The notes under the pieces: model-generated
Databases searched by the model: none
The model's input: only the letters and a program-made list of their open reading frames with translations
Told to the model about the DNA's origin: nothing
Made by a program: the position numbers and the translations under genes
NCBI GenBank assembly: GCA_043228905.1
Contig: JBHGNT010000017.1
Location: 5,828,001-5,892,000, forward strand
DNA from: Azolla caroliniana
Lineage: Eukaryota > Plantae > Polypodiophyta
Reading direction: 5' to 3'
DNA: 64,000 nucleotides
Shown here: piece after piece, positions 2,956 to 64,000 of the stretch
Layout of the letters: each line of letters starts with the position of its first letter
How positions within the stretch are numbered: position 1 is the stretch's first letter

Positions 2956-3676
2956 TTGTTACAAGATGGTACACGCTTGTTACAGGTCACTACAAATATA
3001 TTGTATCATCATGCAATGACATCATTATCTTGGCTATCTCCTAAAGCAATGAAGTTGTGGAATGTATATAAGTCAGATGCAAGGTGGTGGAAATATTACA
3101 ACGTGGTTGGCATTCCCATCTACCATTTCGTGCAAAGGTATTTATATGGAGAGTCATGATTAGTGGGCTCCCATTAGGTTCAGCCCTAAAGAGATGAGGA
3201 CCAGGGTTTGGCACTTGTTTCTTTTGTATCATTCCATTGGAGGATAGTACACATATGTTCATTAAATGTCCTATAGCATGTAACATTTGGAAGTACTTAT
3301 CGGACATTTGGCAAGTTTTAATCCGTTGTTGTTTGAGACCTCAACAATGGGTTTTTTCCCAATATGTTTAAAATGGATCAAATGATGAGATGGAGATATT
3401 GTTCCAATTTTTACGTTATTGGGGTCTACAACACAATTGGAATATGCGTAATGCTTTCATGTTTGATAATAGACATGGGGTGAAAGCCTATATAAAGAAG
3501 CTTAAAGGTATTCTCATGTGGAATTTTTGGATGTTAGAGCATGTGGGGATCATTTCCTCAAATGCATATTCAGGTTTTTTAGTAGCATTATAGAACGTCC
3601 CTCTCCCTACATAGGCATATGATAGGTAGAGGAGACTAAGAAGTGTTGTAAGTAAGTGGATTTTACATTTTACCAA
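2956..3676 (+). mobile_element. 5'-truncated LINE (L1/Tx1-like) ORF2 3' end with zf-RVT zinc knuckle
   Basis: Translates [51 protein letters not shown] (CxxC..H..C). Homologous to 4935-5507 and 52628-52890. Flanked by GA-rich tracts. Confidence 0.75.
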
Positions 3677-3687
3677 GAGAGAGAGAG

Positions 3688-3750
3688 AGCTCAGTTGGTA
3701 AGGTTGCCCAATGGAGACCAGGTGGTCATGGGTTCAACCCCTACATTCCA
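3688..3750 (+). mobile_element. tRNA-derived SINE-like head (degenerate)
   Basis: A-box-like gctcagttggtaag and B-box-like gggttcaacccc; no cloverleaf. Similar reverse-strand B boxes at ~2878-2892 and ~3810-3824. Confidence 0.4.
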
Positions 3751-3893
3751 TAGTGGCATCTAGTGAAATAGAGAGATATATGAAGTATATAATAGAGAGG
3801 TGAGGAAATTGGGTTTCGAACCCAAGACACAATGCTTATAGTGTTATCGACTTACCGCTAGAGTAAGCTAATTACAAAGAGAAAGAGAGAGAG

Positions 3894-5749
3894 CTCTTAG
3901 GTATACGTTATGGAAGAAAAAGTCCAACATTGGTGTCTGTTGGGTTTCATGGCTTCATATATGCACCTCGAAATATTTAGGAGGAGCCGGTTTACTCAAT
4001 TTGGAAGATCATCTGGTTGCTCGAAGGTTTAGTCTCTTGAAAGAGATGTGTTCAGGTTCTCAACCATGGGCAGAGATAATTTGTTATATTTGTGGAGAAA
4101 GTGGGGATACAACATGGTAAAACAAAATTTAGAACTTCAAGGTGGCATATTATTAATAGTTGTTAAGAATTAGGTGATTAATTAAGGGTTAATTAGTACC
4201 TAATTATGTGATTAGTTGATAAGCGAAAGATTAAGTGATATGTGTGTGAGAGGAAGAGAGAGAGAGAGAGGAAGTTAACACTTATAAACAACACAAGATG
4301 GGGGATGAGTAACTATATATTAAATTAACATCAACATCATCAAATACAATAATACCCACAATGAGGTATATATACATCTCATGTGCAAAGGTGCACATGT
4401 GTGAGTAGAATATAGGTACTAAGTTGTAAGTCCTATATTAAATGTACTTAGGAGTGGAGGATCTAGAATATCCCACTTAAGTACAAGGTCCTATTTAAGG
4501 CATTATAGTCAACACTTCTAACTAGATTCTATCTAGGTAACTACAAAGTTACATGGTTGACTAACTAACTAAACTAAGTTGAGCTTGATCTCTCAACAAT
4601 AGCACTCGATCATTTAGGTGTTCAACATCTACTATTGTTCAACATTTAGTGGTCTCTTGGCATAAAAAGTTTGAAGTTGTTCAATTGGAAACCACTTGAT
4701 TGTAGAAAAGATTGCAACTCTTTGCCAACAGAGGTGATAACATCTTCAACATTAGTACAATGGGATGGAAAAGACAGTTTTAAGTTAAAGTTTAATAGAA
4801 TGACAAAACTAGGTTTGGTAATTATGGAAGATGGTATTTTAGAGTCACAGAGGCAGATGATGGCTTTTCGAACTGTGAGAAGTAGATTTCATATACCTCT
4901 TGGATATGGTTAGATTTGGCAAACAATAGTACAATTGCCTATTTTATCATCATCGATTCCACAATTGGTGGTGGTGGAATTGTGGAGAGATTGGTTTTTT
5001 GATAACAAGAAATCATTATTTGCAGTAAACACAAATGATGTTTACCACAAGTTGGTTAAGGATAGGGTTTGGGTACAGAGCAAGGTTTTGGATACATGGC
5101 ACATTATCCGTGGAAGTGAATGGTGTGCTAGAGTTTTAGATGCAGGATGGAAGTCTCATCTTCCTTTTCGTGCAAAGGTGTCTCTTTGGCGTGCTATGGT
5201 TGGTGGGTTACCTTTGGCTAGGGCTTTAAAACGAAGGCACATTGGTAGTGGTACATGTGTCTTTTGTACGACGGTTGATGAAGATTCTCGACACAGGTTT
5301 ATATCTTGCCTTGTTACTAAAAGTATATGGATAGGTATATCACAACTGTGGAGGTCATTAACTGGAAATGTTTTGTCACCTTTTCAATGGATTTTCATTG
5401 AAGGTGATAGAGTTTTACCATCCCCAGAGTATAAGTCTGTGTTTGATTATTTGCGGTACTTGGGCATGTGGTATATTTGGAACTTGCGGAATGGTTTCTT
5501 ATATTGATGGGCTTTCTGGAGTATCTCAACAAGATATGTAGGATAAGAGGAAAGTTGATTTGACAAATTTTCACAGTTATGTTGTTGTATGGGAACTTTG
5601 TCCCCAAATGAGTTACATTTGTGTGGCTTTGTATTGCGGCACCTTAGAAGAGTTGCCCTTAGACACATCGCAACCTTTCCAAAGTAGTTTTTTTGATAGC
5701 AAGGTTTTTTTGTATTATCATGTTGTTTTAATATAAACATACATTTACG

Positions 5750-15000: not shown

Positions 15001-15195
15001 CTTCCAGCATTTCTAATCTTTCCTTCAATTCTATTATTTTATGATTTGCTTGACTGTATGTTACAGATCTGGCAAGTTGAATGGGACATGACTGGTATGA
15101 CGCTAGCATCTTTGGGGAGCAGCGGCATTGTTAGACTATGGCAAGCAAACTTGAAAGGAGAATGGGAAGAATGCACACAATATCATCGTTTCTGA
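5880..15195 (+). CDS. SEH1: Nucleoporin SEH1 (Sec13-like WD40 protein), about 8 exons
   Basis: Exons approx 5880-6044 (TSWNESGHRMAASSADGSIQVWD), 8955-9073 (KVVWAPSEYGDVLASCSYDG), 9184-9292, 10787-10864, 12620-12776, 13802-13915 (HVSWAPNIGR), 14080-14206 (SYEMIAVAS), 15068-15195 (IWQVEWDMTGMTLASLGSSGIVRLWQANLKGEW). GT-AG boundaries. Confidence 0.92.
6560..7270 (+). mobile_element. Copia pol relic (protease / GAG-pre-integrase / integrase start) in SEH1 intron 1
   Basis: KNVLHVPTITKNLVIIRQMV matches the copia VLxVPxxxKNLxS motif; degraded downstream. Confidence 0.6.
7450..8400. other. Nuclear copy of plastid DNA (NUPT): ycf2-5'-like fragment (-) plus trnN-GUU (+)
   Basis: Contains a clear plastid-type trnN copy. 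Minus strand 7460-7650 gives RQFLKD / FLTRFSILLF / VRYSFTR, loosely like the Ycf2 N-terminus. Boundaries approximate. Confidence 0.6.
8144..8215 (+). pseudogene. trnN-GUU: tRNA-Asn(GUU) pseudogene of plastid origin
   Basis: tcctcagtagctcagtggtgga..gctgttaaccaattggtcataggctcgagccctatccagggag (72 nt) aligns with plastid trnN (TCCTCAGTAGCTCAGTGGTAGAGCGGTCGGCTGTTAACCG...). GTT anticodon kept; D-stem and T-loop mutated. Confidence 0.85.
14495..14885. mobile_element. AT-rich hAT/MITE-like element in the last SEH1 intron, with an internal ~93-bp tandem duplication
   Basis: Ends catggtt / aactatg. Internal tacgtattta motifs resemble 28382-29209. Duplicated block at ~14605-14785. Confidence 0.45.
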
Positions 15196-16873
15196 AGATT
15201 GTCATATTTAATGCATAACAAAAGCGTGAGGGTGTGTCCATTATATGATTCATGAATGTGCTATGTATTAAACTGGGAATACTGATGATGTGATATCAAG
15301 CTCTCTTTAATTCGGATCCATTTCAAGCATAAATATTTGTTGCTTCCTTGTTTAGAAATTTGAATGTGTATCATCTCAATCAACAAAAAAAACATGCTAT
15401 GAATCAATGTCGTCACTTTCATTAATAGAAATCAAACCTGTCACTGAAAATTTCTTGCTTTGTGTAGAAATTTAAATGTTTATCATGTCAATCAACAAAA
15501 ATGGTGTCATGAGTCGAATGTTAAATCAACAAATAAGTGTTACAAATCAATTGCCTTTACTTCCATTATGAGAAGAGAAATATCAATTGTATTTTCTTGA
15601 GAACAAGGAATTGAAGCTTTAACTTCAATTCTGTAACCAAATCCTGGCAGACTATGGTAACATTGGTATCATAAGATCACTTCTTAACTCTTGTGACGGT
15701 GACTAGTTTGAAAGATAAAATGATAATTAAGTACTCAACATATGATAATATCACTTGCAAAATGCTATGCAGAATTTGAGCCACTTATTGAATCTTTGAG
15801 GTCACTAAACTCTGTCAAAGTGAGTATGATTGAAACCTTTTCACAAGTAATCTCTACTTTAGTCTTACAGGCTATTTTGGCTTCTTAGGAGTAAGATATA
15901 CGTTCATTTCTTTCTTTCAATGCCTATTCCCATCTCATGAGGATACATGATACTCTAGACAAATTAGTTTAGTTAAACACTATATGCAATTACATGCATT
16001 CACAATGGCGAGATTAATTTTTACTTTCATAGGATGGTTATGATTCCCATAAGTTACTTCATACTCTTCAAATTTATTTGGGTTAAGTCTTAATAGTCAT
16101 GATTATAATCAAAATACAAATAATGAAAACTGCATTAATTTCGTCCACATGATTGAAATAAAGATATGTTTGATTTGGGTTGGTCTTGACCATCATGATT
16201 AAATAACAAACCTATATTAATTTCATCCACATAATTGAAATAAAGATAAATTTGATTGCACAATAATCACATGGTACAACTTTTTGGGTAGGATGCTGAA
16301 CGTTTGGTGTTTGGTAACTGCACGCCTTCCATATATGCATATCAGTCAACCCAGAAAAATAAGACATATTGACCTTCTGGAGCAGGCATTTTTCAAATGC
16401 CCCCAATGAGATTTTGCATGACCGAATTGTTCTGTTAACTAATCAACAAATACAAAGTTTTTGATAGGGTGCTGAACATTTGATGTTTAGTAACCACACC
16501 CCCTCGTTTCTATTCGACCTCAGGTTCATAAATGTGAAGAGGGAGTGAATCTAGGGCTTGGACGGCCTTGAACTCATCTCGGGAATCTCGGATGATCAAG
16601 GCCGTCCAAGCACAAATAAAAATAAAAACAAATAAAAACAAATAAGAAAAAATAAAAAGCAAAAAAACATTAAAAAACAAAAATGAAAAGTAAGAGAGAG
16701 AAAACTATTTTGGGGTCTATTTGGGGGAAATTCAAAATCGTGAATTTTTGTGTCTTCTTCTCTCTTTCCTCGCTTCTCTGTTTCCTCGTCGAGCACCCTG
16801 ATTTCTTTATCATACGCAAGAATAACCTAATTTCTGTGTCTTCTTCTATTTATCACAAGCAAGAATCACAGGT

Positions 16874-17848
16874 GTGCAAATAAACTTTTCTCCACTTATG
16901 AACATGATGGATTTCTATTTTACCCCATACATATTTATGCTTTTTTCTGTTTTTTCATTTAGGGTTCAAAATCGACATATTCTGTGTCTTCTTCTCTCTT
17001 TCCTCGTCGACCACTTCTCTATCGCAACTTGCAAGCAAGAACTTGATTATGCATGTAAATGCAAGCACTTGATGTGTATTAGATTATTTATTGAACAACA
17101 CATGCCTGACTCAAGAAAGGAGCTACATCTTATTGATGATGCATTAGAAATGCGTGGTCAAGATGCAAATGCCAACTTTGAGGGTAGCCATGATGAGTCT
17201 ATATTTGCAACTATTTCTCTTGTTAAGGAAACAATAAGGAATTTTGAAGAGTGTCTACATTCTATGTCTAAAGAGGATGTTAATGTTTGGAATGAAAGAA
17301 TGCTTGCATTTTGTCAGCAAATGAGGTCTGATATTTCTCCTTTGATGAAAGATCTGCCTCAAAATGAGAGTATTAGAGGTTTGCAACAAAATGTTATTGA
17401 AAACCCCTATGGCAACAAAAGGCCCATTGTTAGCAATGTAGTAGCTTTCGAAGATATCGGGGTAGCTCCTAACAATAAGGATAAAGGTACAAGAAGGCAT
17501 GGATGGGGCATACAAGGATGTCGAAAGCGAGTTCGTCTACCGAGACGTATGAAGGTTCGATGTATGCATTGTAATTCTTTGGTCCTAATATTAGATAAAA
17601 ATCAAACATCACATTGCAATCATTGTGATAGCATGTTGCCGTTAAATCATAATCATGGTGACATTTCGATCGCTATGAAGGGAAAATGTATATTGATTGA
17701 TGATGGGGCAGAGTGCATAACAAGTGCTATGATTGTTGATGTTCATTACCCAGATAATGGGGGAGAACGATGGTTCACAATAACAAATAGCAATGGAGTA
17801 TCTACCACTAATATTTATGCTTCTAAAGTTAGAATTCTTGCTACATAG
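16874..17848 (+). CDS. Truncated transposase-like C-terminus: partial SWIM finger plus CxxC-x14-CxxC zinc ribbon (left arm)
   Basis: DYACKCKHLMCIR resembles the SWIM CKH end; CMHC..CNHC. The first ~55 codons look like translated CT-rich leader/intron (gt ~16872 .. catttag ~16961). Confidence 0.55.
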   Translation: MQINFSPLMNMMDFYFTPYIFMLFSVFSFRVQNRHILCLLLSFLVDHFSIATCKQELDYACKCKHLMCIRLFIEQHMPDSRKELHLIDDALEMRGQDANANFEGSHDESIFATISLVKETIRNFEECLHSMSKEDVNVWNERMLAFCQQMRSDISPLMKDLPQNESIRGLQQNVIENPYGNKRPIVSNVVAFEDIGVAPNNKDKGTRRHGWGIQGCRKRVRLPRRMKVRCMHCNSLVLILDKNQTSHCNHCDSMLPLNHNHGDISIAMKGKCILIDDGAECITSAMIVDVHYPDNGGERWFTITNSNGVSTTNIYASKVRILAT

Positions 17849-18360
17849 CTTTATTGTTTAAACAGATCTGTTCAGACTATGGTGTGATTCAGTTTTGCCA
17901 GGTTTGATTCTCATTCCTAAATCTATATTGTTTCTCATTTGTAGCTTTCGTATTTGTACATTGTTGACTGGTAACCTTGTTTGGTGCCTTTTGTAGGTTC
18001 ATGGGCATGAGAAAATTTGGATGCCTTTTTCCAACTCGGATATTTATCGACAATTTAAATTTTGGATTATATTGTAAATACACAAACTCTGAATAGTGTA
18101 TCTTCAGTCTCAACTTCTATAAATACACAATCTGCCATATTGTATCTTCAATTACAATTTTTGCAAATATGTCATTAACGATGAAACCATTACATAACAC
18201 TCAATACACAATATTCGAGTTTGAGTAAACAAGGTTACCAGTCAACAATGTACAAATACGAAAGCTACAAATGAGAAACAATATAGATTTAGGAATGAGA
18301 ATCAAACCTGGCAAAACTGAATCACACCATAGTCTGAACAGATCTGTTTAAACAATAAAG

Positions 18361-19335
18361 CTATGTAGCAAGAATTCTAACTTTAGAAGCATAAATATTA
18401 GTGGTAGATACTCCATTGCTATTTGTTATTGTGAACCATCGTTCTCCCCCATTATCTGGGTAATGAACATCAACAATCATAGCACTTGTTATGCACTCTG
18501 CCCCATCATCAATCAATATACATTTTCCCTTCATAGCGATCGAAATGTCACCATGATTATGATTTAACGGCAACATGCTATCACAATGATTGCAATGTGA
18601 TGTTTGATTTTTATCTAATATTAGGACCAAAGAATTACAATGCATACATCGAACCTTCATACGTCTCGGTAGACGAACTCGCTTTCGACATCCTTGTATG
18701 CCCCATCCATGCCTTCTTGTACCTTTATCCTTATTGTTAGGAGCTACCCCGATATCTTCGAAAGCTACTACATTGCTAACAATGGGCCTTTTGTTGCCAT
18801 AGGGGTTTTCAATAACATTTTGTTGCAAACCTCTAATACTCTCATTTTGAGGCAGATCTTTCATCAAAGGAGAAATATCAGACCTCATTTGCTGACAAAA
18901 TGCAAGCATTCTTTCATTCCAAACATTAACATCCTCTTTAGACATAGAATGTAGACACTCTTCAAAATTCCTTATTGTTTCCTTAACAAGAGAAATAGTT
19001 GCAAATATAGACTCATCATGGCTACCCTCAAAGTTGGCATTTGCATCTTGACCACGCATTTCTAATGCATCATCAATAAGATGTAGCTCCTTTCTTGAGT
19101 CAGGCATGTGTTGTTCAATAAATAATCTAATACACATCAAGTGCTTGCATTTACATGCATAATCAAGTTCTTGCTTGCAAGTTGCGATAGAGAAGTGGTC
19201 GACGAGGAAAGAGAGAAGAAGACACAGAATATGTCGATTTTGAACCCTAAATGAAAAAACAGAAAAAAGCATAAATATGTATGGGGTAAAATAGAAATCC
19301 ATCATGTTCATAAGTGGAGAAAAGTTTATTTGCAC
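18361..19335 (-). CDS. Identical copy of the SWIM/zinc-ribbon ORF (right arm)
   Basis: Translation identical to 16874-17848. Confidence 0.55.
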   Translation of the reverse strand: MQINFSPLMNMMDFYFTPYIFMLFSVFSFRVQNRHILCLLLSFLVDHFSIATCKQELDYACKCKHLMCIRLFIEQHMPDSRKELHLIDDALEMRGQDANANFEGSHDESIFATISLVKETIRNFEECLHSMSKEDVNVWNERMLAFCQQMRSDISPLMKDLPQNESIRGLQQNVIENPYGNKRPIVSNVVAFEDIGVAPNNKDKGTRRHGWGIQGCRKRVRLPRRMKVRCMHCNSLVLILDKNQTSHCNHCDSMLPLNHNHGDISIAMKGKCILIDDGAECITSAMIVDVHYPDNGGERWFTITNSNGVSTTNIYASKVRILAT

Positions 19336-20038
19336 ACCTGTGATTCTTGCTTGTGATAAATAGAAGAAGACACAGAAATTAGGTTATTCTTGCGTATGAT
19401 AAAGAAATCAGGGTGCTCGACGAGGAAACAGAGAAGCGAGGAAAGAGAGAAGAAGACACAAAAATTCACGATTTTGAATTTCCCCCAAATAGACCCCAAA
19501 ATAGTTTTCTCTCTCTTACTTTTCATTTTTGTTTTTTAATGTTTTTTTGCTTTTTATTTTTTCTTATTTGTTTTTATTTGTTTTTATTTTTATTTGTGCT
19601 TGGACGGCCTTGATCATCCGAGATTCCCGAGATGAGTTCAAGGCCGTCCAAGCCCTAGATTCACTCCCTCTTCACATTTATGAACCTGAGGTCGAATAGA
19701 AACGAGGCCTTCTATATACATTCTGTTCAATACAAAAAAGAGGGCACACTGGGGTTCCTATTCTCCTGGAGCAGGCCTTTCTTCAAATATCTCCAATGAG
19801 ATTTTTCATGACAGCATTTTTCTGTTAAAATTAGTCATTACCCTTGCAGTTGAAAAGTTATCACACCCCTTCTATATACATTCTGTTCAATCCAAAAAAG
19901 AGGGCACTCTGGGGCTTCCTATTCTCCTGGAGCAGGCCTTTTTTCAAATATCTCCAATGAGATTTTTCATGACAGCATTGTTCCATTAAAATTATTCATT
20001 ACCCTTACAGTTGAAAAGTTGTGTCAAGTGTCTCTAAA

Positions 20039-23000
20039 TCATACATGGAAAAGGTAGCTTATGTCACTCTCAGTCAAATGAACCAAATTGGCTTGTCCGT
20101 CCTCACCAAAGGCAGAAGCTACCATTTGACGCTTCCGTTCCTAGTTTTCCAAGTTGGTATAAAAGGAAATTGCATATAAGAAAGGTCAAATGGCATTTGA
20201 AAATGTTAAATGTATGTAAATATAAATCTCACATTCAAGTAGTACATACCTGCAAAGCCAACATGCGATCTTCAATAGTGTTTCTTACCGTGAACTGTGA
20301 CACAATAACTTGATTTTCCTGTCCAATTCTGTGGGCACGATCAATTGCTTGCTGCTCAGTGGTTGGATTCCACCAAGCATCCACAAGAAGCACATGAGAT
20401 GCCTCAATCATATTAAGACCCAGACTACCAGCCTTCAAAGACAGAAGCATAACAGTCACCTACAAAAACGTCTTTTTTGTGTGTCAAAGGAATTGCAATA
20501 ACATAATATAAAAAATCGCATTTAAATCACAAAATCTAATTATAATGTACACAGAATTGGTAATGCACTTACTAAAAAAATGATCTCACAGAGAACATGA
20601 ATATATACAAGAGAAATAATCTGTTGGTAAAACTGTGTATGCAAAAGTTAACAACTCAACTAATATGCACATGAATTTTTTTCTACTTGACAAGTAGAGT
20701 AAGCAATGACCTCTGGTAATGTCTTGAATTCTGAAAGAGCACGCTCACGGGCCTGTGTAGACATTGTGCCATCCAGCCTTCGGTAGCAAATCCCTTCTCT
20801 ACCGAGAGAAATTTCTAGCAAGTCTAACATCCTTGTCCACTGTGAGAATACAAGCGCTTTCTTTCTGCTTAAGGAAGCATTATTTTGTCTCCTGAATCGA
20901 TCTTGATCAATGTTTGTAACCATTGGCAAAGCAAGTATTGTTTTAATAACTGCGTTAATCTTTGAGGAAGATTTAGTTTGTACAACTGAAGAGATGGTTG
21001 GTAAGGCCTCCCCACTAAAATCATTTTGTGCAGAAGTCAATGAGGACCAAGAATAAATAGATTGTAGTTGTAATATTGTATCACAATCGGTATTTGGGCA
21101 GCAAATATAATCATCACGTTCCAGTTCCTGTGAAATACATTGTCTACAGAAGATATGAGCACATTTGGTCACAACTGCATCCTCTGGGATGTCCTGTAAA
21201 AAACACAGATCATGATAACTTCTGTATAAATCTGAACAATTGAGAGAAATTATTGCAAAACAATGGCATTTGCCTATTTGTTCTTGTTTTAGATAAAAAG
21301 ACTGTATATTATCTACACAGAAATCCTTCAGAGCACAAGGCATAGCACAATTGACAGCTGTAGCCAAGAACCTCAGTTATATCACTGATTTGGTGTATAT
21401 AGCCAGGTAACAATACCAAAATCAAAACTAAGAATAGGTGAAAACATTAATTAATATCCACTGCCTATATCCTTCACAACATTTTCCATTAATTAATATC
21501 CACTAACTAGGATTAATCTCTAGAATGTGGTGAGGTTGTATTCTGAGGCTCAGAATATGAGCACTTTAATAATGGTTATATAAACGCAAAATATAAAACA
21601 AAAATTGAAAACCCAAAATGAAAAGCGTCTGTTCTCACCATGCAAATAGAACACACATCCGAGTTGCTCTTCAATCTTGATATAAGAAAATGTTGTTCCT
21701 CTCGAGATAAAAGCTCAATTTGTGTACGACTCTCTCCATCCTTCAAATGATCTTTGACAAGACTCGGATCATCACATGCTTGTCTCAAACATAAAAGCAT
21801 TGATAATATATTAACATAGTTCCTGTGCACATCACCCATTGCAGCATACATCTACAACAAAATAAAGTTTTATGTTAAGAAAACAGTGATTGACAAATTT
21901 AAAAATGATAAAAAGCTACTATTAAACTGAGTTATCATATTAAAAAATGCCCTATCTATCCAATACACACATCAATTTTTACAAACTTCACATTGGAAAA
22001 CCTATCACCACTCTTGATGTCATCAAAGTTCACATGAATATTGAACCTGGACTTGGGTTCAATATGATGCGTACATGGCACATTGCTAGTATGGCTAAAA
22101 TGTCTTCACCTTTAAGAAATGTGGATTTGCTAAGTAGAACCCTAGACATGTGTAATTAGCTTAATTCTATGGACAAGCATGTATCTAATCTCTCGTGAGA
22201 AATAACAATGTTGAACTGCATAACATTAGTTATCACCAGCATCAAGAAACCTATCCAATGAAGGACTAAACTATCATTTCCCTGTTTAGCCAAAATTTGT
22301 TCATCTCCAATATTGAGAAAGATCAAAGTACTAAACATGCCTCTATAAGTTGTAATGTTCTGGATAGCAAAGCTGATCATCATGTCGTTAATACAAGGAA
22401 TTGAATTAGGAAATTAACAACTGAAATGTAAATCAATTTAGAAATGAATCACAATACAGACACCACAAACTGTACATTGAAGTCCATTACAATTCTTTGT
22501 TCCTTCAGAAGAGGGTGGTTGTTGGTCACATATGATGTGTTTCCAATGCAGTCATGTTGTAGGCTTGCGCAATGTGAAAGATGTGTTAACATCTCTAGGA
22601 GACCAAAATTATTGCCTCATTTCTGAGAACAAGGAAATATCTGAAATAGAATCAGACATTTCTCTCGTAAGGGAAATATTCACAACTTCTTGTCTAGCAA
22701 ATCCTGTGCATTTTTTTATAGAAGTATAATGTGTCAATTCCATAAATTTTCATACCAGAAATATGATACATGTCTTTCAATTTCTGTATACCTGAAATTT
22801 CTTACGATATTTGACTTCAAGTTTTGTATAGAATTCTCGTTCTGTGGGACTAAAGTCTATTTGTATCAAGCTCACAATCTTCTTTGGCAAATTTAATATC
22901 GGCTTTCCATCAATGAGAGTTTCTGTCAAAATCAGGAATAGTCTCAAAAAGCACATTCTTGCAATGCTTCCTACTGACAACAGACAGAGGAAAGTCCTAA

Positions 23001-39285: not shown

Positions 39286-41802
39286 TTACGTTATGAGAGA
39301 AGGAGGGGTGCTAGAAGATAGGCTTAGGGTAGCATATGGCTTGATACGGGCAACATGGGTTGAGGTGAATCGACCGTTGGAATCGCGTCGGAGTAAGTAA
39401 GTCGTGGACTTGATGCCACGAATTACGGTGAATGGGCTGAGGTATTTTGTTATGACAAGGATATACCTGTTGCCCCTAGAGGTTTCGGGAAAAGGTCCCA
39501 TGAAATCCCATCCGACTAGCTCGAAAGGTGACGTGACGGTGATGGGTTGGAGTGTTCCAACTGGCTTGCCCCCAGGTTTGATGTGTTGACACAAAGCGCA
39601 TTGTTTGATACAGGTAGAGACTGAGTGTCTCATGTTGGGCCAATAATACTTGAGATGTAATTTTTCAAGAACCTTGTGGAAACCCAAGTGGCCCGACAAT
39701 GGGTGGTCGTGATAAAATTGGAGATACGTTTGTTGTAGGGCATGAGGGATGTAGAGACGAGGCTCGTGATGCGCTTGAATGAAGAATACCAAGTTATCGC
39801 GGAGCATGAACCGTCGTTGTGAGGGAAACGGTTGGAGGGAGCGCAACTGATGGATTATCTGTTGGATGATGGGGCCGTGTTGTTGAAGCGTAGCGAGTTG
39901 TGGCAATGGTATCGGAAGATCGGATGTCTCAGGGAGAAATTGGACAGCCTAGTAGTCGGCGTGAGAGAGACTATCAGCGACCAAATTGGTTGCACCTTTC
40001 CGATAGGAGAGGGTAAACTGATACTCTTGAAGTGCTAGCGTCCATCGCAACAAGCGGCCTGGGGGGTGAGGTCGATGGATAAGAGAAAGCAAGGGTTGGT
40101 GGTCGGTCTCAACCGTAACTTGTCCACCATGAAGGTATGGATGAAAACGCTGGAAAGACCAGACAATCACAAGTAGCTCCTTCTCAGTGGTTGAGTAGTT
40201 GTGTTCAGCCGACGTGAGAGTCTGACTAATGAAGGCGACCGCCTTCTCTTGCCCATGGCAATCGGCTTGCAAGAGGACGGCTCCTAACCCCTGGTTTGAT
40301 GCGTCTATCTGCAACGTGAACGGTCAGTCAAAGTTAGGATGGGCGAGCAACCCCGATTCCTTGACCTTGGTTTTAAGGCGACGAAAGCTATCTTCACAAG
40401 CAGGATCCCAACTGAATGACACGCCTTTCTTCAAGAGTTGGCGAAGGGGAAAAGTGACCAAGGCAAGGTTTGGGATGCAGCGAAGGGAAAAGGTGATCAT
40501 GCCCAAAAAACGTTGCAAGGATTTGACTGAAGTGGGGTGAGGGTAGTCGTTGATGGCTGCTACCTTTGCAGGGTCCATACGGATTCCGTCACCAGAGATG
40601 ATGAAGCCGAGAAAACGGAGGCTAGTGCTTCCCCATCGACACTTCTTCCATTGGAGCTGCAAGTTATGTTGAGTTATGCAAGCGAGGACTTCGGCGAGAG
40701 TTTGTAGATGGTCCTCCCAAGTGGTCGTGTGGATAAGGATGTCATCGAGATAAACGAGGAGGACACCTTTGTTGATAAGGGCGGCAAAAATGGAGTTGGC
40801 CATGCGTTGGAATGTGCTGCCAGCATCAGACAGGCCGAACGGCATGCGGGTGAATTGGAATAGCCCGCGGCGTGTGCGGAATGCGGTCTTGTGGGCGTCA
40901 GAAGGTTTTAGGGGGATTTGCCAATATCCCGAGGCTAAGTCTAGGGAGGTGAAATAACGGGAGCCACCAATTTGATCCAAGAGGTCGTCCACGCGAGGGA
41001 GCGGGTAGAGGTCATGGATAGTCACTTTGTTAAGAGGCTTGAAGTCGATGCAAAAGCGGAAGGTGCCATCATCCTTCTTGACGAGGTGGGGTTCCGAAAC
41101 CCAATCGCTGGTGGAAGGAACGATAATACCTTTGGTGAGCATGTCGGTGACGACCGCATCAATGCGATCATGGTCGAGAGGGGAACGTCGGCGGGTAGCC
41201 ATGCGGATCGGAGTGGCCTCCCCAGTACGAATGGCATGTTGTACTGGGAAAGAGACAGTAGGAGCATGTGTGGGTTGGAGGATTAGTGATGGAAAACGGG
41301 CTAATAATTGGCGGATGGAGACCAATCGCTCTTGTGGACTAAGTGCTACCTAAACTTGGCTAAGGTGGGGGCTAGGGGAGCTATCTTGTAGAAGAGGGAT
41401 AGGGGAAGCATGTGGGACAAGAAGTTTGTGGGCCTCAAAATCAATCACAGCGCGGCGCTTGAGGAACCAATCACAACCTAGGGTGAGGGGGAAGAGTTGG
41501 TGGGGGGGCAAGACATAAAAGTGATGTGAGAAGGTGATAGTGCCTAAGGTGAAGGTGCAATGGGCTTGTGTGTGAGAGTGGTAAAGATGTTGGTGATCGC
41601 CAAAAAGGACTTGGATGGAAGGAGCAGTGGATGTGGGGAGACCTAATCGGTGTACTAAAGCGGTGCTAATAGAAGATATACTACTACCAGTGTCTAATAA
41701 GATGGTGTGGGTGCAGTGATTAATGGTGGCGAGGGCGGTGCATACCCTCGAACTAGAAGAGGCAGACGCTTGGATGTGGAGGGTTGGCTCTTCCATCAGC
41801 AC
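39286..41802 (-). pseudogene. pol: gypsy pol (protease, RT, RNase H, partial integrase)
   Basis: LLDTGSS; MPFGL..YLDDILI; IDAS..YSTTEKELL..TDH; H-x6-H..CALC. Single frame broken by 3 stops (41350, 40324, 39949). Integrase core missing between VITKYLS and PFTV. Confidence 0.93.
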
Positions 41803-41810
41803 CCCGGACG

Positions 41811-42778
41811 TCAGTTTCCCGGAAGCTCAGCCAACGATGCCGCGTCAGCCATAGTTATCTGGACTTGTTGCTTGTGAGATTGTTGTTGCAATTTCCGGCA
41901 CTGACGTCGGACGTGTCCATAATTGTGGCAGTAGAAACACCTCGGGCGCCCTTGGCTATCACAATCGGGATGGTTGCGGCGAGCCTGCAATTGCATGTTT
42001 TGGACATCAATGTCCATGGGGGCCGCGCCTTGGTATTGGGCGCGTGAGTCGGTGGCTGATGGATGGGGCCAACGAGGTTGGGTGTCAGATAATGTACAAG
42101 CTTCGATTCGTTGGGCGATGAGGATGGTGTCGTTGAATGTCTGCGTACCTTGGTCCCGAGCGCGGCGAGTGATGTCGTGGCGCAGACGAGGCCATAAGAA
42201 GAAAAGCTTCACATGCTCGGGCATGGTAGGGTCAGCGCGAATGAGGAGTTGATTGAGGCGAACACCAAATTGTCCCACGGGTTCGTGTGCTTGTTGTTGC
42301 AATGTTTCGAGTTGTTGTAACGCCGTTTGGGCTGAATTTTGATGGGCGAAGTTTTGTACGAGGAGATCCCGAAGGATCACCCAATTCTCAGTCACGTCGC
42401 TTGATTGTTGGACGTACCAAGTGGCGGCGACGTTTTCGAGCAGGGTACGAACTTCCAAAGCTTTGCGCTCGTCGGACCATCGATGGTAACTAGAGATCAT
42501 CTCAAAATGATCCAACCAAGCTAAGACATCCTGGGAAGGCAATCCGAAGAAGGACTTCGGGCGCACCTTGGAATCTGGACGATCTTGCGCGCGGTCGTTG
42601 TGAGCGGAGAGGAAGGAGAGCATAGCTTGATTCGTATGGCTGATTTGAAGCATGATGTTGGAGACGAGTTCCAGGAGCTGCTCCATTTGGAAAGGGGGAG
42701 GTCGTGCGTGAGGTTGCGAGAACTCAGGCTCCATCGGGGTATCGACGTTGGAGGCGGCGGAAGGGAATTGGGATGCCA
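41811..42778 (-). CDS. gag: gypsy gag with CCHC knuckle
   Basis: Open ORF with PMDID and CFYCHNYGHVRRQC; first ATG gives MASQFP. Confidence 0.88.
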
Positions 42779-42827
42779 TGAACAATGTAGTAGTGGCTAA
42801 AATTTGAGCCCGCTTCTCCACCAATTA

Positions 42828-54842: not shown

Positions 54843-54944
54843 GGCGGAGAGATGTCGGCGTTTCTTCTCTTCTCTTCTCTTCTCTTCTCTGTGTTTCTGT
54901 GTTTCTTCTGATCTGTTGGCAGAGGAGGAGGAGGAGACACACAG

Positions 54945-57900
54945 AGATTCGAATGGAAGGAGAAGCTGAAGGTTTCTAAACTTGAATGGCGGTTTCACAC
55001 TTGGCTCATCCAAGAAAAAGCCTTTTGTCCGGACAAAAGGAATGGCTAACTGGCCATCTGCCCGGACAAAGATCCGGGTTCCTTCCAGCCCCACAGATTC
55101 GAATGGAAGGAGAAGCTGAAGGTTTCTAAACTTGAATGGCGGTTTCACACTTGGCTCATCCAAGAAAAAGCCTTTTGTCCGGACAAAAGGAATGGCTAAC
55201 TGGCCATCTGCCCGGACAAAGATCCGGGTTCCTTCCAGCCCCACAGATTCGAATGGAAGGAGAAGCTGAAGGTTTCTAAACTTGAATGGCGGTTTCACAC
55301 TTGGCTCATCCAAGAAAAAGCCTTTTGTCCGGACAAAAGGAATGGCTAACTGGCCATCTGCCCGGACAAAGATCCGGGTTCCTTCCAGCCCCACAGATTC
55401 GAATGGAAGGAGAAGCTGAAGGTTTCTAAACTTGAATGGCGGTTTCACACTTGGCTCATCCAAGAAAAAGCCTTTTGTCCGGACAAAAGGAATGGCTAAC
55501 TGGCCATCTGCCCGGACAAAGATCCGGGTTCCTTCCAGCCCCACAGATTCGAATGGAAGGAGAAGCTGAAGGTTTCTAAACTTGAATGGCGGTTTCACAC
55601 TTGGCTCATCCAAGAAAAAGCCTTTTGTCCGGACAAAAGGAATGGCTAACTGGCCATCTGCCCGGACAAAGATCCGGGTTCCTTCCAGCCCCACAGATTC
55701 GAATGGAAGGAGAAGCTGAAGGTTTCTAAACTTGAATGGCGGTTTCACACTTGGCTCATCCAAGAAAAAGCCTTTTGTCCGGACAAAAGGAATGGCTAAC
55801 TGGCCATCTGCCCGGACAAAGATCCGGGTTCCTTCCAGCCCCACAGATTCGAATGGAAGGAGAAGCTGAAGGTTTCTAAACTTGAATGGCGGTTTCACAC
55901 TTGGCTCATCCAAGAAAAAGCCTTTTGTCCGGACAAAAGGAATGGCTAACTGGCCATCTGCCCGGACAAAGATCCGGGTTCCTTCCAGCCCCACAGATTC
56001 GAATGGAAGGAGAAGCTGAAGGTTTCTAAACTTGAATGGCGGTTTCACACTTGGCTCATCCAAGAAAAAGCCTTTTGTCCGGACAAAAGGAATGGCTAAC
56101 TGGCCATCTGCCCGGACAAAGATCCGGGTTCCTTCCAGCCCCACAGATTCGAATGGAAGGAGAAGCTGAAGGTTTCTAAACTTGAATGGCGGTTTCACAC
56201 TTGGCTCATCCAAGAAAAAGCCTTTTGTCCGGACAAAAGGAATGGCTAACTGGCCATCTGCCCGGACAAAGATCCGGGTTCCTTCCAGCCCCACAGATTC
56301 GAATGGAAGGAGAAGCTGAAGGTTTCTAAACTTGAATGGCGGTTTCACACTTGGCTCATCCAAGAAAAAGCCTTTTGTCCGGACAAAAGGAATGGCTAAC
56401 TGGCCATCTGCCCGGACAAAGATCCGGGTTCCTTCCAGCCCCACAGATTCGAATGGAAGGAGAAGCTGAAGGTTTCTAAACTTGAATGGCGGTTTCACAC
56501 TTGGCTCATCCAAGAAAAAGCCTTTTGTCCGGACAAAAGGAATGGCTAACTGGCCATCTGCCCGGACAAAGATCCGGGTTCCTTCCAGCCCCACAGATTC
56601 GAATGGAAGGAGAAGCTGAAGGTTTCTAAACTTGAATGGCGGTTTCACACTTGGCTCATCCAAGAAAAAGCCTTTTGTCCGGACAAAAGGAATGGCTAAC
56701 TGGCCATCTGCCCGGACAAAGATCCGGGTTCCTTCCAGCCCCACAGATTCGAATGGAAGGAGAAGCTGAAGGTTTCTAAACTTGAATGGCGGTTTCACAC
56801 TTGGCTCATCCAAGAAAAAGCCTTTTGTCCGGACAAAAGGAATGGCTAACTGGCCATCTGCCCGGACAAAGATCCGGGTTCCTTCCAGCCCCACAGATTC
56901 GAATGGAAGGAGAAGCTGAAGGTTTCTAAACTTGAATGGCGGTTTCACACTTGGCTCATCCAAGAAAAAGCCTTTTGTCCGGACAAAAGGAATGGCTAAC
57001 TGGCCATCTGCCCGGACAAAGATCCGGGTTCCTTCCAGCCCCACAGATTCGAATGGAAGGAGAAGCTGAAGGTTTCTAAACTTGAATGGCGGTTTCACAC
57101 TTGGCTCATCCAAGAAAAAGCCTTTTGTCCGGACAAAAGGAATGGCTAACTGGCCATCTGCCCGGACAAAGATCCGGGTTCCTTCCAGCCCCACAGATTC
57201 GAATGGAAGGAGAAGCTGAAGGTTTCTAAACTTGAATGGCGGTTTCACACTTGGCTCATCCAAGAAAAAGCCTTTTGTCCGGACAAAAGGAATGGCTAAC
57301 TGGCCATCTGCCCGGACAAAGATCCGGGTTCCTTCCAGCCCCACAGATTCGAATGGAAGGAGAAGCTGAAGGTTTCTAAACTTGAATGGCGGTTTCACAC
57401 TTGGCTCATCCAAGAAAAAGCCTTTTGTCCGGACAAAAGGAATGGCTAACTGGCCATCTGCCCGGACAAAGATCCGGGTTCCTTCCAGCCCCACAGATTC
57501 GAATGGAAGGAGAAGCTGAAGGTTTCTAAACTTGAATGGCGGTTTCACACTTGGCTCATCCAAGAAAAAGCCTTTTGTCCGGACAAAAGGAATGGCTAAC
57601 TGGCCATCTGCCCGGACAAAGATCCGGGTTCCTTCCAGCCCCACAGATTCGAATGGAAGGAGAAGCTGAAGGTTTCTAAACTTGAATGGCGGTTTCACAC
57701 TTGGCTCATCCAAGAAAAAGCCTTTTGTCCGGACAAAAGGAATGGCTAACTGGCCATCTGCCCGGACAAAGATCCGGGTTCCTTCCAGCCCCACAGATTC
57801 GAATGGAAGGAGAAGCTGAAGGTTTCTAAACTTGAATGGCGGTTTCACACTTGGCTCATCCAAGAAAAAGCCTTTTGTCCGGACAAAAGGAATGGCTAAC

Positions 57901-58960
57901 TGGCCATCTGCCCGGACAAAGATCCGGGTTCCTTCCAGCCCCACAGATTCGAATGGAAGGAGAAGCTGAAGGTTTCTAAACTTGAATGGCGGTTTCACAC
58001 TTGGCTCATCCAAGAAAAAGCCTTTTGTCCGGACAAAAGGAATGGCTAACTGGCCATCTGCCCGGACAAAGATCCGGGTTCCTTCCAGCCCCACAGATTC
58101 GAATGGAAGGAGAAGCTGAAGGTTTCTAAACTTGAATGGCGGTTTCACACTTGGCTCATCCAAGAAAAAGCCTTTTGTCCGGACAAAAGGAATGGCTAAC
58201 TGGCCATCTGCCCGGACAAAGATCCGGGTTCCTTCCAGCCCCACAGATTCGAATGGAAGGAGAAGCTGAAGGTTTCTAAACTTGAATGGCGGTTTCACAC
58301 TTGGCTCATCCAAGAAAAAGCCTTTTGTCCGGACAAAAGGAATGGCTAACTGGCCATCTGCCCGGACAAAGATCCGGGTTCCTTCCAGCCCCACAGATTC
58401 GAATGGAAGGAGAAGCTGAAGGTTTCTAAACTTGAATGGCGGTTTCACACTTGGCTCATCCAAGAAAAAGCCTTTTGTCCGGACAAAAGGAATGGCTAAC
58501 TGGCCATCTGCCCGGACAAAGATCCGGGTTCCTTCCAGCCCCACAGATTCGAATGGAAGGAGAAGCTGAAGGTTTCTAAACTTGAATGGCGGTTTCACAC
58601 TTGGCTCATCCAAGAAAAAGCCTTTTGTCCGGACAAAAGGAATGGCTAACTGGCCATCTGCCCGGACAAAGATCCGGGTTCCTTCCAGCCCCACAGATTC
58701 GAATGGAAGGAGAAGCTGAAGGTTTCTAAACTTGAATGGCGGTTTCACACTTGGCTCATCCAAGAAAAAGCCTTTTGTCCGGACAAAAGGAATGGCTAAC
58801 TGGCCATCTGCCCGGACAAAGATCCGGGTTCCTTCCAGCCCCACAGATTCGAATGGAAGGAGAAGCTGAAGGTTTCTAAACTTGAATGGCGGTTTCACAC
58901 TTGGCTCATCCAAGAAAAAGCCTTTTGTCCGGACAAAGATCCGGGTTCCTTCCAGCCCCA
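54945..58960. repeat. Tandem array of 26 identical 150-bp units plus one internally deleted terminal unit
   Basis: Exact 150-bp period. The last unit lacks 33 bp between two ccggacaaa motifs. Followed by a C17 tract. Confidence 0.98.
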
Positions 58961-59129
58961 GAGACCCCCCCCCCCCCCCCCTTCATGCAATACATGCACA
59001 TATGTGATGTTCCAAACACTTTCCAATATATGTGTGCCATGTTCTTCTCATATACATAATATGGTGTCTCTTCCTCAACGTTCTATTATTGCATATACCA
59101 ACAGTAAATTTGCAAACAATATTCATAGC

Positions 59130-61525: not shown

Positions 61526-63966
61526 TCACAGCTTGTCCTCATACTCGGAGAGAGGAGTCATCTGCTCCTTAAGTCCCTTCCTCTTGCGAATATCAATAAC
61601 CAACTGATGTGCTTGAGAACCGATATCATTCGGATCACTATTCATCATGTCCCAATGATCAAACACACATTGTGGAAAAGCTTGCCCCGATGTCGCAGCA
61701 CGAAGAGTACTAGAGAATCCAAACGATTCTATAACAGGAAGATACGCTTTAATGTTATACAATGGTGTACCAGGTCTCTGAATTTCTTCAAACACGTGCC
61801 CTCTCTTCTGATTAAGAACTCCATATATACCACCCAAAGCTTGTTCCGGTGCTTGTATCTCTACAAGGTAAACAGGCTCTAAAAGCCTGGGTTTTGCAGT
61901 TAGCTGAGCAGCATACATTACTCTTCTTGCCGTTGGAATCACCTGCCCACCTCCTCTATGAATAGCATCAGCATGCAACACAACATCACAAACCTCAAAT
62001 GCTATCCCTCTCATATTCTCCTCAGCTAGAGCACCTTCCTTGGTAGCCCACTGGAACGCCGCCACAACAGAATCCTTTATCTCATTCAAGTATTGCACTC
62101 CCTTACACATGTCAACCACCAAGTTTGGCCCAGTAGTCTCAGGGCCAAAACACCATATCTTCTTAGCCAGATCTTTATCCCAACCAAATTCCTCGGATAA
62201 GATTTTGCTGCGAACTTTAGGATCATCTCTTGGGCCAATCCGCCCTTCGTCAATCGCCTCAGGGAGCCCATCTTCTAAAGGCCTCGCCTCAAAATACAGA
62301 CGATTATGCTTGTTGGGCGATTTGCTCATAACTGTGTGGTTGGATTTCTCAAGGACAGTCTCCCTAAATGAAACAACAGGATCCGATACAGCAATTTCAG
62401 CACCACCCATGAAATCCTCTTGCAAATCCTTGAGACAAATCTCTAAATGTAGCTCACCAGCACCAGCAATAATATGCTCACCAGACTCTTCAATTGTACA
62501 GACAACCATGGGATCTGACTTAGCTAGTCTCTTCAGCCCCTCGACTAACTTGGGAAGATCAGAAGCAACTTTGCATTGCACAGCAACTCTCACCACAGGA
62601 GAAACAGAAAATTTCATTGCACGTATAGGATGAGCATCCACCTCCTTTTCATTGGTAAGGGTCGCATTCTTGGTTATAAATTGATCCAAGCCAACCATGG
62701 CCACGGTGTTACCACAAGGTACATCCTCTACAGACTCTTGCCTTCTTCCCATCCAAATAACTGTTCTTTGAACACTCTTGGTGTACAAGTCCTTCTTTTG
62801 ACCAGGAACAAAATTAGGGCCCATTATACGAACCTTCAAACCAGTAGACACCTTTCCAGAAAACACACGGCCAAAAGCAAAGAATCGACCCTTATCAGAG
62901 GCAGGAATCATTTTAGAGACATAAAGCATAAGGGGACCATCAGGATCACAGTTTCTAATTGCATTTGCATAAACATCATCCAACGGCCCTTCATATAAGT
63001 TTTCAACACGGTATTTTTGTGCCTTTGCTGGAGACGGAAGGTGAAAGACCATCATTTCTAACAGTGCATCACTTGCTGGGAGCCAAGATTGCATTACTCG
63101 TTTCATCAAGGGTTTACCCCTGAGCTCTTTCTCATCAGCCTTCATGGTAACTCCAAGTTTCTCCAGCATAGGCCACAACATCTCTTTCTGGTCATTCATA
63201 CATATATTAATGATTTGCTTGATTGGGTTGTAAATGAACTGAACAAAACCCCTCTGACACGTTGCAGACCCGGAATTTTTTGTGGTCCACTTCTTTGTAG
63301 CAGAATCAAAGTAATTTTCTCCCCAGAGACGTTCCATCATCTTTGATTCATCAACACGAAACTTGCTAGCATACATCTTTGCAAAATTAGTGAGCGTAAA
63401 AGCCCATCCATGCAATCCAGCTGAGAATGCAACAGTGCCTTTCTCTGGATAGACTTGAACATCACCAAGGAGTGGATCCTCATATGTGGCCATGATAACA
63501 TTGGCATTCTCAATAACCCTCTGAAATGTCTGATAAGCTTCTTCCCCGTCTACCTGAAGCTCAAGGAAGCATCGATCCATTTTGTTGACAGTAAGAACAG
63601 GCCTAATCCTCTCACCAAGGGCCTGACGCAATACAGTCTCCGTTTGAACACAAACACCTTCAACACAATCAACCACAACCAAAGCACCATCAGTAATACG
63701 CAAAGCTGCAGTGACTTCTGATGAGAAGTCAACATGGCCTGGAGAGTCGATGAGATTAATAAGATAATCATTTCCATCCTTTTCTCCCTTGAAGTCTTTT
63801 AAAGAGGCATCTGTCATCTCATAATAGAGGGAAATCCCAGTAGATTTAATTGTAATGCCACGTTCAGCTTCATCCTGTCTCGTATCAGTTAGCCGCACAT
63901 CGCCCGCCACTTCTTGAGCAATGATACCAGCCGCAGCCACAAGGGAATCCGTCAATGTAGACTTAC
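61526..63966 (-). CDS. EEF2: Eukaryotic translation elongation factor 2, large last exon (5' exons lie outside the window)
   Basis: [35 protein letters not shown], diphthamide motif [11 protein letters not shown]. Splice acceptor ctaag immediately upstream of 63966. Confidence 0.98.
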
Positions 63967-64000
63967 CTTAGAGAAAGAAAAAAGCCACAATAAATTCCAT

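What the first reader, a model, noticed from the sequence alone, without database searches (positions are those of the whole stretch)
16502..19707. 3.2-kb palindromic element whose two identical 1.48-kb arms each carry a SWIM/Zn-ribbon ORF
Seen: arms 16502-17982 and 18227-19707 are reverse complements with no difference visible, around a 244-bp spacer. Both ORFs point inward, and there is no 8-11-bp TSD (at most C/CC). Inference: this is an internally deleted transposon end (terminus, leader with intron, then the 3' part of a SWIM-type MULE or Zisupton-like transposase) that was mirror-duplicated into a mobile unit with two identical ends. Inverted repeats making up over 90% of the element and containing the coding sequence do not fit ordinary TIR families, so it could be an undescribed foldback element class.
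Basis: partly seen in the sequence, partly recalled or inferred. Interest (0 to 1): 0.85.

Follow-up and report, generated by a model that had tools for sequence, protein, structure and literature searches.

The report
Mu killer-like mirrored Mutator remnant
This 3.2-kb DNA palindrome is a broken copy of a young Mutator-type jumping gene, likely in a fern, whose left half was likely mirrored in place by faulty repair; it has the layout of maize's Mu killer and would be able to silence its intact parent if it were transcribed, which was not tested, so it is not a new class of transposon.

Summary
The palindrome is real: two identical 1,481-bp arms around 244 bp. It derives from a young Mutator-like (MULE) family. 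The genome holds an intact 6,804-bp parent with a 1,045-aa MULE transposase, and every left-right copy has a 9-10-bp target-site duplication (6 of 6). The window's element has two LEFT ends, lacks the catalytic domain, keeps only half of the SWIM finger, and has no duplication. The empty allele in two other samples implies a net gain of 1 bp. Two more left-left elements occur in this lineage, also without an adjacent duplication (0 of 3). So these look like dead-end products made in place by abortive transposition and inverted-microhomology repair, not a mobile foldback class. The layout matches maize Mu killer; transcription and silencing were not testable. None of the six laid runs bridges the centre or outer junctions, so an artefact is unlikely but not formally excluded. 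The scan noted Mu killer-like palindromes before in other genomes, none for this sequence.

The parts
16502..19707 (.). Whole palindromic derivative (3,206 bp) of a MULE; both tips are left-type (5'-CCTCG)
16502..17982 (+). Left arm, 1,481 bp; carries variants absent from the sibling copies (4 substitutions and a 9-bp deletion), shared with the right arm
18227..19707 (-). Right arm, exact mirror of the left arm
16502..17041 (+). Parent left end, bases 1-540: TIR (first ~214-240 bp, ~80% like the parent's right TIR), subterminal repeats and leader
17042..17043 (+). 2-nt filler at the internal deletion that removes the parent's start codon and whole catalytic domain (joins parent base 540 to base 3366 of the intact copy)
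   Evidence: the junction is bridged by one contig of run X6
17045..17848 (+). 3' remnant of the transposase gene, residues 776-1045: second half of the SWIM-like finger, CxxC...CxxC zinc-ribbon-like motif, stop codon
18361..19164 (-). Mirror copy of the transposase remnant
17983..18163 (+). Spacer part 1: parent bases 4314-4494 (3' of the transposase stop), continuing the left arm
18164..18226 (-). Spacer part 2: parent bases ~4563-4500 inverted; inferred fold-back loop (6 of 7 bases can pair at the switch), followed by a 185-bp skip with 1-nt microhomology
16499..16501 (+). Left junction C run; with 19708-19709 it gives five C where the empty allele is inferred to have four (net +1 bp, no flank loss)
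19708..20020 (+). Two local ~160-bp tandem units (94% alike); an older unit lies at 16326-16501, so the register runs on across the element
15052..15195 (+). Last coding stretch of a SEH1-like WD40 gene; stop 1,306 bp from the left tip, pointing at the element
20039..20140 (-). Likely last exon of a RING/SNF2 (RAD5-like; family name recalled) helicase gene; stop 331 bp from the right tip, pointing at the element

Best explanation
The element is a non-autonomous, two-left-end derivative of a young MULE family that was likely made in place by an abortive transposition and is likely a dead end rather than a mobile unit. Steps: (1, shown) an intact parent with 9-10-bp TSDs exists, and the arm is its left 540 bp joined to the last third of the transposase gene. 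(2, partly shown) This internal deletion likely came first, because the same junction stands in another sample without the palindrome's centre junction being seen. (3, inferred) The transposase cut off the right end, and the broken end folded back, or met a sister copy, through a few bases of inverted microhomology about 390 bp behind the stop codon, giving a mirror copy of the left half. (4, inferred) The new left tip was cut exactly, by the transposase, and joined to the trimmed flank, so one copy of the TSD was lost to within 1 bp. (5, inferred) A 185-bp skip in one arm widened the spacer from ~70 to 244 bp. (6, untested) Read-through from either convergent neighbour gene, or from the element's own left-end promoters, would give a 1.48-kb perfect hairpin RNA whose small RNAs match the intact copy, as with Mu killer.
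For: Parent: 6,804 bp, 1,045-aa ORF without stops, Pfam MULE 36.8 bits against a cut-off of 27.6, nearest named relatives are Adiantum proteins about 50% identical over the searched region. TSDs: 6 of 6 left-right pairs have 9-10 bp, 0 of 3 independent left-left elements have an adjacent one. Empty allele: contigs of runs X1 and X2 follow the window to 16502 and carry 22 further letters, exactly what a four-C empty site predicts and what three-C or five-C sites do not. Centre: 6-of-7 pairing at the window's switch and 5-nt microhomology at the centre of the second palindrome on C11, like the 5-bp repeat with a 35-bp spacer used for fold-back in yeast (PMC10622511, passages). The older left-left element L075 keeps an 11-bp flank repeat behind an 18-bp perfect palindrome at its right tip, the footprint expected if a flank hairpin was opened; a MULE transposase makes such flank hairpins in vitro (PMC5499845 section 12). 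1,252 of 1,461 21-mers of the arm match the intact copy exactly.
Against: No contig of the six runs laid (X1, X2, X4, X6, X7, X8) bridges the centre or either outer junction (the tables are cut). No precursor with a full TSD was seen at this site. The C11 palindrome has a 100-N scaffold gap in its middle and its empty site is unknown. The arms of L075 are only 87-89% alike, about as far apart as from other copies of that subfamily, so it may be a fusion of two elements; its footprint lies in low-complexity DNA. n = 3 left-left elements. In X6 the contigs carry parental letters at the arm's private variant sites. Nothing here shows transcription.
Confidence: 0.72

Rival explanations
1. A hairpin-capped fragment of an excised element (left end cut precisely, right part folded back and copied to the tip) was inserted at a fresh site by a one-ended strand transfer or by end joining at a break. 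Replication then made it a palindrome with no TSD.
For: It explains both exact tips, unbroken flanks and a net gain of 1 bp without any trimming. Single-end joining by a MULE transposase is seen in vitro (PMC5499845 section 13). No precursor was seen at this site in X1 or X2.
Against: It does not explain the displaced 11-bp repeat and the palindromic filler beside L075. No in vivo case turned up in the paper searches.
Confidence: 0.13
2. One reading: a mobile foldback unit with two identical ends, possibly a new class.
For: Both tips are intact and perfectly matched. Two of the seven young copies found are left-left. Long TIRs built from internal sequence exist in mobile Galileo copies (PMC3573991, passages).
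Against: Single copy among scored hits (lower bound). No TSD in 3 of 3 left-left elements against 6 of 6 for left-right copies. The three C22 copies of L075 share their flanks, so they spread by segmental duplication, not by transposition. The parent is a standard MULE.
Confidence: 0.05
3. Assembly or read artefact (fold-back read, or a mis-join of two left ends).
For: Arms are 100% identical. No laid run bridges the centre or outer junctions. The C11 case contains a gap.
Against: The flanks are not mirrored and continue each other to within 1 bp of the empty allele. The centre has two template switches, not one. An artefact would also have to remove a 9-10-bp TSD. The private deletion junction exists in an independent run. 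The flanks are single-copy.
Confidence: 0.06
4. Two copies inserted tail to tail within a few bases of each other, or one inside the other, and the middle part with both right ends was later deleted.
For: The C11 arm holds a right end joined in inverted orientation to the middle of the transposase gene. Inverted neighbours of one family are known (Antirrhinum New Stabiliser, passages; VANDAL21 pair, passages).
Against: It needs the second target to overlap the first TSD by exactly one base, and both copies to share five private variants.
Confidence: 0.04

Closest known systems
Mu killer (Muk) of maize (PMC3440606, passages; bioRxiv 2020.01.09.900282, passages; the original 2005 paper is not held)
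   Same: Derivative of an autonomous MULE with two copies of the transposase-side TIR, an internal deletion with a private junction, and an inverted partial transposase gene of similar size (1.3 kb into mudrA per arm). It lies between two host genes.
   Different: Muk keeps the 5' part of mudrA, while this arm keeps the leader and the 3' 270 codons. Muk is recalled to sit at a flanking deletion; here the flanks are intact to within 1 bp. Muk transcripts, small RNAs and silencing are shown; here none is. The host is likely a fern, and the form recurs in the lineage.
Ac killers p1-ww-id1 and id4 of maize (bioRxiv 2020.01.07.897926, passages)
   Same: Inverted repeats of one transposon end made by aberrant transposition, with broken ends fused in inverted orientation.
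   Different: hAT superfamily. They need two nearby elements, carry perfect 8-bp TSDs and come with 0.3-3.2-Mb duplications; none of that is seen here.
Galileo copies with extended TIRs (PMC3573991, passages)
   Same: Non-autonomous copies whose inverted repeats grew to over 1 kb by taking in internal sequence, including a TIR1-F1-F1-TIR2 form.
   Different: P superfamily. Most copies keep TSDs, and the longest-TIR copies lack transposase sequence.
Canonical MULEs such as Muta1 (PMC5499845, passages and sections 12-13)
   Same: The parent has TIRs over 100 bp, long TSDs, a MULE domain with a CxxH motif, and subterminal repeats.
   Different: The window's element has lost the catalytic domain, the right end and the TSD.

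Membership tests
MULE superfamily (parent family) | MULE-type DDE transposase | tested here: met
   Pfam PF10551 36.8 bits, cut-off 27.6; conserved D458, D525, C562-x-x-H565 and E655 in alignment A1, triad assigned by inference
MULE superfamily (parent family) | TIRs longer than 100 bp | tested here: met
   ~214-240 bp at ~80% identity
MULE superfamily (parent family) | Long TSD (8-11 bp; range partly recalled) | tested here: met
   10 bp in five left-right copies and 9 bp in one
Transposed non-autonomous MULE / foldback element (the window's element as a unit) | TSD of the family's length at both tips | tested here: not met
   Net +1 bp against the inferred empty allele
Transposed non-autonomous MULE / foldback element (the window's element as a unit) | Further copies at independent loci | tested here: not met
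   None among scored hits: 40 of 101 candidates, 37 of 37; lower bound
Mu killer-type locus | Two copies of the same (transposase-side) TIR | tested here: met
   Both tips CCTCG; the parent's right tip is GCTCG
Mu killer-type locus | Inverted duplication of part of the transposase gene | tested here: met
   Residues 776-1045 in both arms; 3' part, not 5' part as in Muk
Mu killer-type locus | Cognate autonomous element in the genome | tested here: met
   L033, open 1,045-aa frame, 10-bp TSD, about 99% identical over the shared body; activity itself not shown
Mu killer-type locus | Transcribed into hairpin or antisense RNA | not testable with these tools
   Only contigs of DNA runs were laid
Mu killer-type locus | Small RNAs and heritable silencing of the parent in trans | not testable with these tools
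   Needs small-RNA, methylation and segregation data
   The Pfam scan of the parent at E <= 1 returned only MULE and a weak ZSWIM1-3 RNaseH-like hit

The most novel reading that the evidence does not exclude
This MULE lineage repeatedly makes its own silencers: abortive transposition swaps the right end for a mirror of the left half without a TSD (three independent cases of different age), and the youngest one, facing two convergent host genes, is a working Mu killer that targets the 3' end of the transposase RNA and is shutting down a burst with a single intact master copy. That would show the killer route in a fern and give a natural, polymorphic test system.
Probability: 0.3. Interest if true: 0.62.

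Novelty: new member of a known kind. Interest (0 to 1): 0.36.

Why it matters
How an active transposon is first recognised for silencing rests on few natural cases, and those in our paper searches were from flowering plants (Mu killer, Ac killers, Antirrhinum Stabilisers). Here a young family has one intact master, four deletion copies and two mirror derivatives among seven copies found, and the insertion is absent in at least two other samples. Carriers and non-carriers could be compared directly for hairpin RNA, small RNAs and methylation of the master. The contrast in TSDs also suggests how such palindromes form and that they do not spread. Without RNA evidence it is an ordinary by-product of transposition.

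Tried and rejected
Pfam on the arm ORF gave only weak zinc-ribbon-like hits below cut-off. A search for longer relatives of the arm peptide found one near-identical family member. Flank searches found no dispersed paralogue that shows the empty site, for the window or within reach of the C11 junctions. No RNA holder was listed among public runs; this says nothing on expression. Six runs laid on the two halves showed no contig across the centre or outer junctions; contigs show presence, not absence. 25 older loci were screened for inverted repeats: besides ordinary TIR pairs (L039, L040) and short unrelated repeats, only L075 showed long arms. For the TSD count, one search examined 45 loci and found tip pairs in 12. 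L080 and L081 were merged with L075 (shared flanks), and L039 (557 bp, degenerate right tip, no TSD) was left out. Rejected: Zisupton/KDZ (MULE hit, 9-10-bp TSD); a functional protein from the arm (no parental start codon, no catalytic domain, half a SWIM finger; a C-terminal peptide from an internal Met is possible but unsupported). Structure prediction was not run, because the parent settles the identity. The same-genome notes returned concern a different transposon. Supplements of the bioRxiv papers (Muk and Ac killer junction sequences) were not seen and could bear on the comparison of footprints.
Full report
Observation. The arms 16502-17982 and 18227-19707 are exact reverse complements over 1,481 nt around 244 nt, 92% of the element. 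Each arm has an inward 340-aa stop-to-stop frame. There is no 8-11-bp TSD. The element lies between two genes that point at it: a SEH1-like gene (stop 1,306 bp away) and a RING/SNF2 helicase gene (stop 331 bp away). The flanks are single-copy.

The parent. Searches of the genome with the left end, the body and the right end (in only 40 candidates were scored, of 101 and 76, so counts are lower bounds) gave seven young copies. L033 is 6,804 bp with an open 1,045-aa frame that passes the Pfam MULE cut-off. Its closest named relatives are Adiantum proteins, about 50% identical over the searched region, so the host is likely a fern. Alignment A1 shows conserved acidic residues, a CxxH motif, a CxC...CKH motif and a CxxC...CxxC motif. 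TIRs are about 214-240 bp and about 80% alike; the left tip starts CC and the right tip GC. L031, L032, L034 and L035 are internal-deletion copies with both ends. All five left-right young copies and one old copy (L040) have 9-10-bp TSDs.

Anatomy of the window's element. Each arm is parent bases 1-540, a 2-nt filler, then parent bases 3366-4313. The deletion removes the start codon, the whole catalytic domain and the first half of the SWIM-like finger; residues 776-1045 remain. Both arms share four substitutions and a 9-bp deletion that the siblings lack. The spacer is parent 4314-4494 forward, then about 4563-4500 inverted, then a skip of 185 bp back into the mirror arm. Read on the minus strand, this is a fold-back at about 4564 onto 4494-4500, where 6 of 7 bases can pair, plus a deletion near the centre of one arm. 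Fold-back on a 5-bp repeat with a 35-bp spacer is reported in yeast (PMC10622511, passages).

The insertion site. Contigs of runs X1 and X2 follow the left flank to 16502 and have 22 letters left over. An empty site with four C predicts exactly these two numbers, through a 30-letter word shared with the next tandem-unit junction; three or five C do not. The letters were not printed, so this is an inference. The filled site has five C: a net gain of 1 bp and no loss of flank.

Other left-left elements. L036 on C11 has 2,371-bp arms, a 5-nt microhomology at its fold-back junction, a scaffold gap in the middle and no TSD; its empty site could not be found. L075 on C22 is an older sister-subfamily element with two left-type tips and arms 87-89% alike; its three copies share flanks. 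Beside its right tip lie an 18-bp perfect palindrome and an 11-bp repeat of the left flank. This is what an opened flank hairpin would leave, and a MULE transposase makes flank hairpins (PMC5499845 section 12), but the DNA is low in complexity and the element may be a fusion of two copies. Of 45 loci examined, 12 had tip pairs. After merging the three C22 copies and leaving out degenerate L039, 6 of 6 left-right pairs and 0 of 3 left-left elements have an adjacent 9-10-bp TSD (p = 0.012).

Is it real? No contig of the six runs laid bridges the centre or outer junctions (tables cut). X6 bridges the private deletion junction with a 136-nt contig without differences, but carries parental letters at the private variants and an unbroken parental contig across the centre positions. 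It probably holds a precursor and not the palindrome. Against an artefact: unmirrored flanks that continue each other to 1 bp, two template switches at the centre, and a missing TSD that no mis-join explains. I put an artefact at about 6%.

Mechanism. Most likely (72%) a deleted copy sat here; the transposase removed its right end; repair mirrored the left half through inverted microhomology, by fold-back synthesis or by joining to a sister copy; and the new left tip, cut exactly, was joined to the trimmed flank. The sequence cannot tell these sub-routes apart. Precise loss of one TSD copy is the usual outcome of Muta1 excision in yeast (PMC5499845, passage). The main rival (13%) is insertion of a hairpin-capped fragment at a fresh site by one-ended joining, which is seen in vitro (section 13). 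In neither case has the palindrome moved as a unit.

Comparison. Mu killer has two copies of the transposase-side TIR, an internal deletion and an inverted partial transposase gene of 1.3 kb per arm, between two host genes (PMC3440606, passages; bioRxiv 2020.01.09.900282, passages). Ac killers arise by alternative transposition and have TSDs (bioRxiv 2020.01.07.897926, passages). Galileo copies extend their TIRs with internal sequence (PMC3573991, passages). The structural tests for a Mu killer-type locus are met; the functional ones could not be run. If transcribed through, the arm would give a perfect 1.48-kb stem, and 1,252 of its 1,461 21-mers match the intact copy. The listings of five paper searches showed no fern case, but most subscription papers are not held. 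Earlier notes of this scan report Mu killer-like palindromes in other genomes and none for this sequence; I reached this reading before those look-ups and did not check the notes.

Verdict. This is a new member of a known kind, a Mu killer-like inverted-duplication derivative of a young MULE. Interest 0.36. It would be about 0.6 if RNA data show that it silences the single intact master, which I put at 30%.

Noticed in passing
L036 = G000:C11:20630580-20636673: Second left-left palindrome of the same family: 2,371-bp arms (2 substitutions, one 10-bp indel), each with left end 1-2133, an 18-bp filler copied from the TIR, and an inverted right end; 5-nt microhomology at the centre, a 100-N gap, no TSD.
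   Followed up: partly
L033 = G000:C4:11994790-12001593 (minus): Intact 6,804-bp MULE with a 1,045-aa open frame and a 10-bp TSD; the only full-length young copy found.
   Followed up: yes
L075:6123-8310 = G000:C22, with segmental copies L080 and L081: Older 2.2-kb element of a sister subfamily with two left-type tips and ~680-bp arms; an 18-bp perfect palindrome and an 11-bp flank repeat lie beside its right tip.
   Followed up: partly
L031-L035, L040: Canonical copies are asymmetric at the outermost base (left 5'-CC, right 5'-GC), also in an old copy; this might matter for paired integration.
   Followed up: no
L031, L032, L035, element bases ~625-821: A ~180-bp self-inverted stretch (93-94%) in the leader of the left end, removed or altered in several derivatives.
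   Followed up: no
window 54942-58990: Array of about 27 perfectly identical 150-bp units, open in one minus-strand frame; young minisatellite or assembly expansion.
   Followed up: no
window 39289-42824 (minus): Broken LTR-retrotransposon-like gag-pol frames in several pieces (identity from recalled motifs).
   Followed up: no
window 61529-63967 (minus): Long uninterrupted frame that looks like elongation factor 2 (recalled).
   Followed up: no
runs X6 and X7, near window 16967 and 19185: Loose ends show other internal-deletion junctions of the family that differ from the window's, so the family varies between samples.
   Followed up: no
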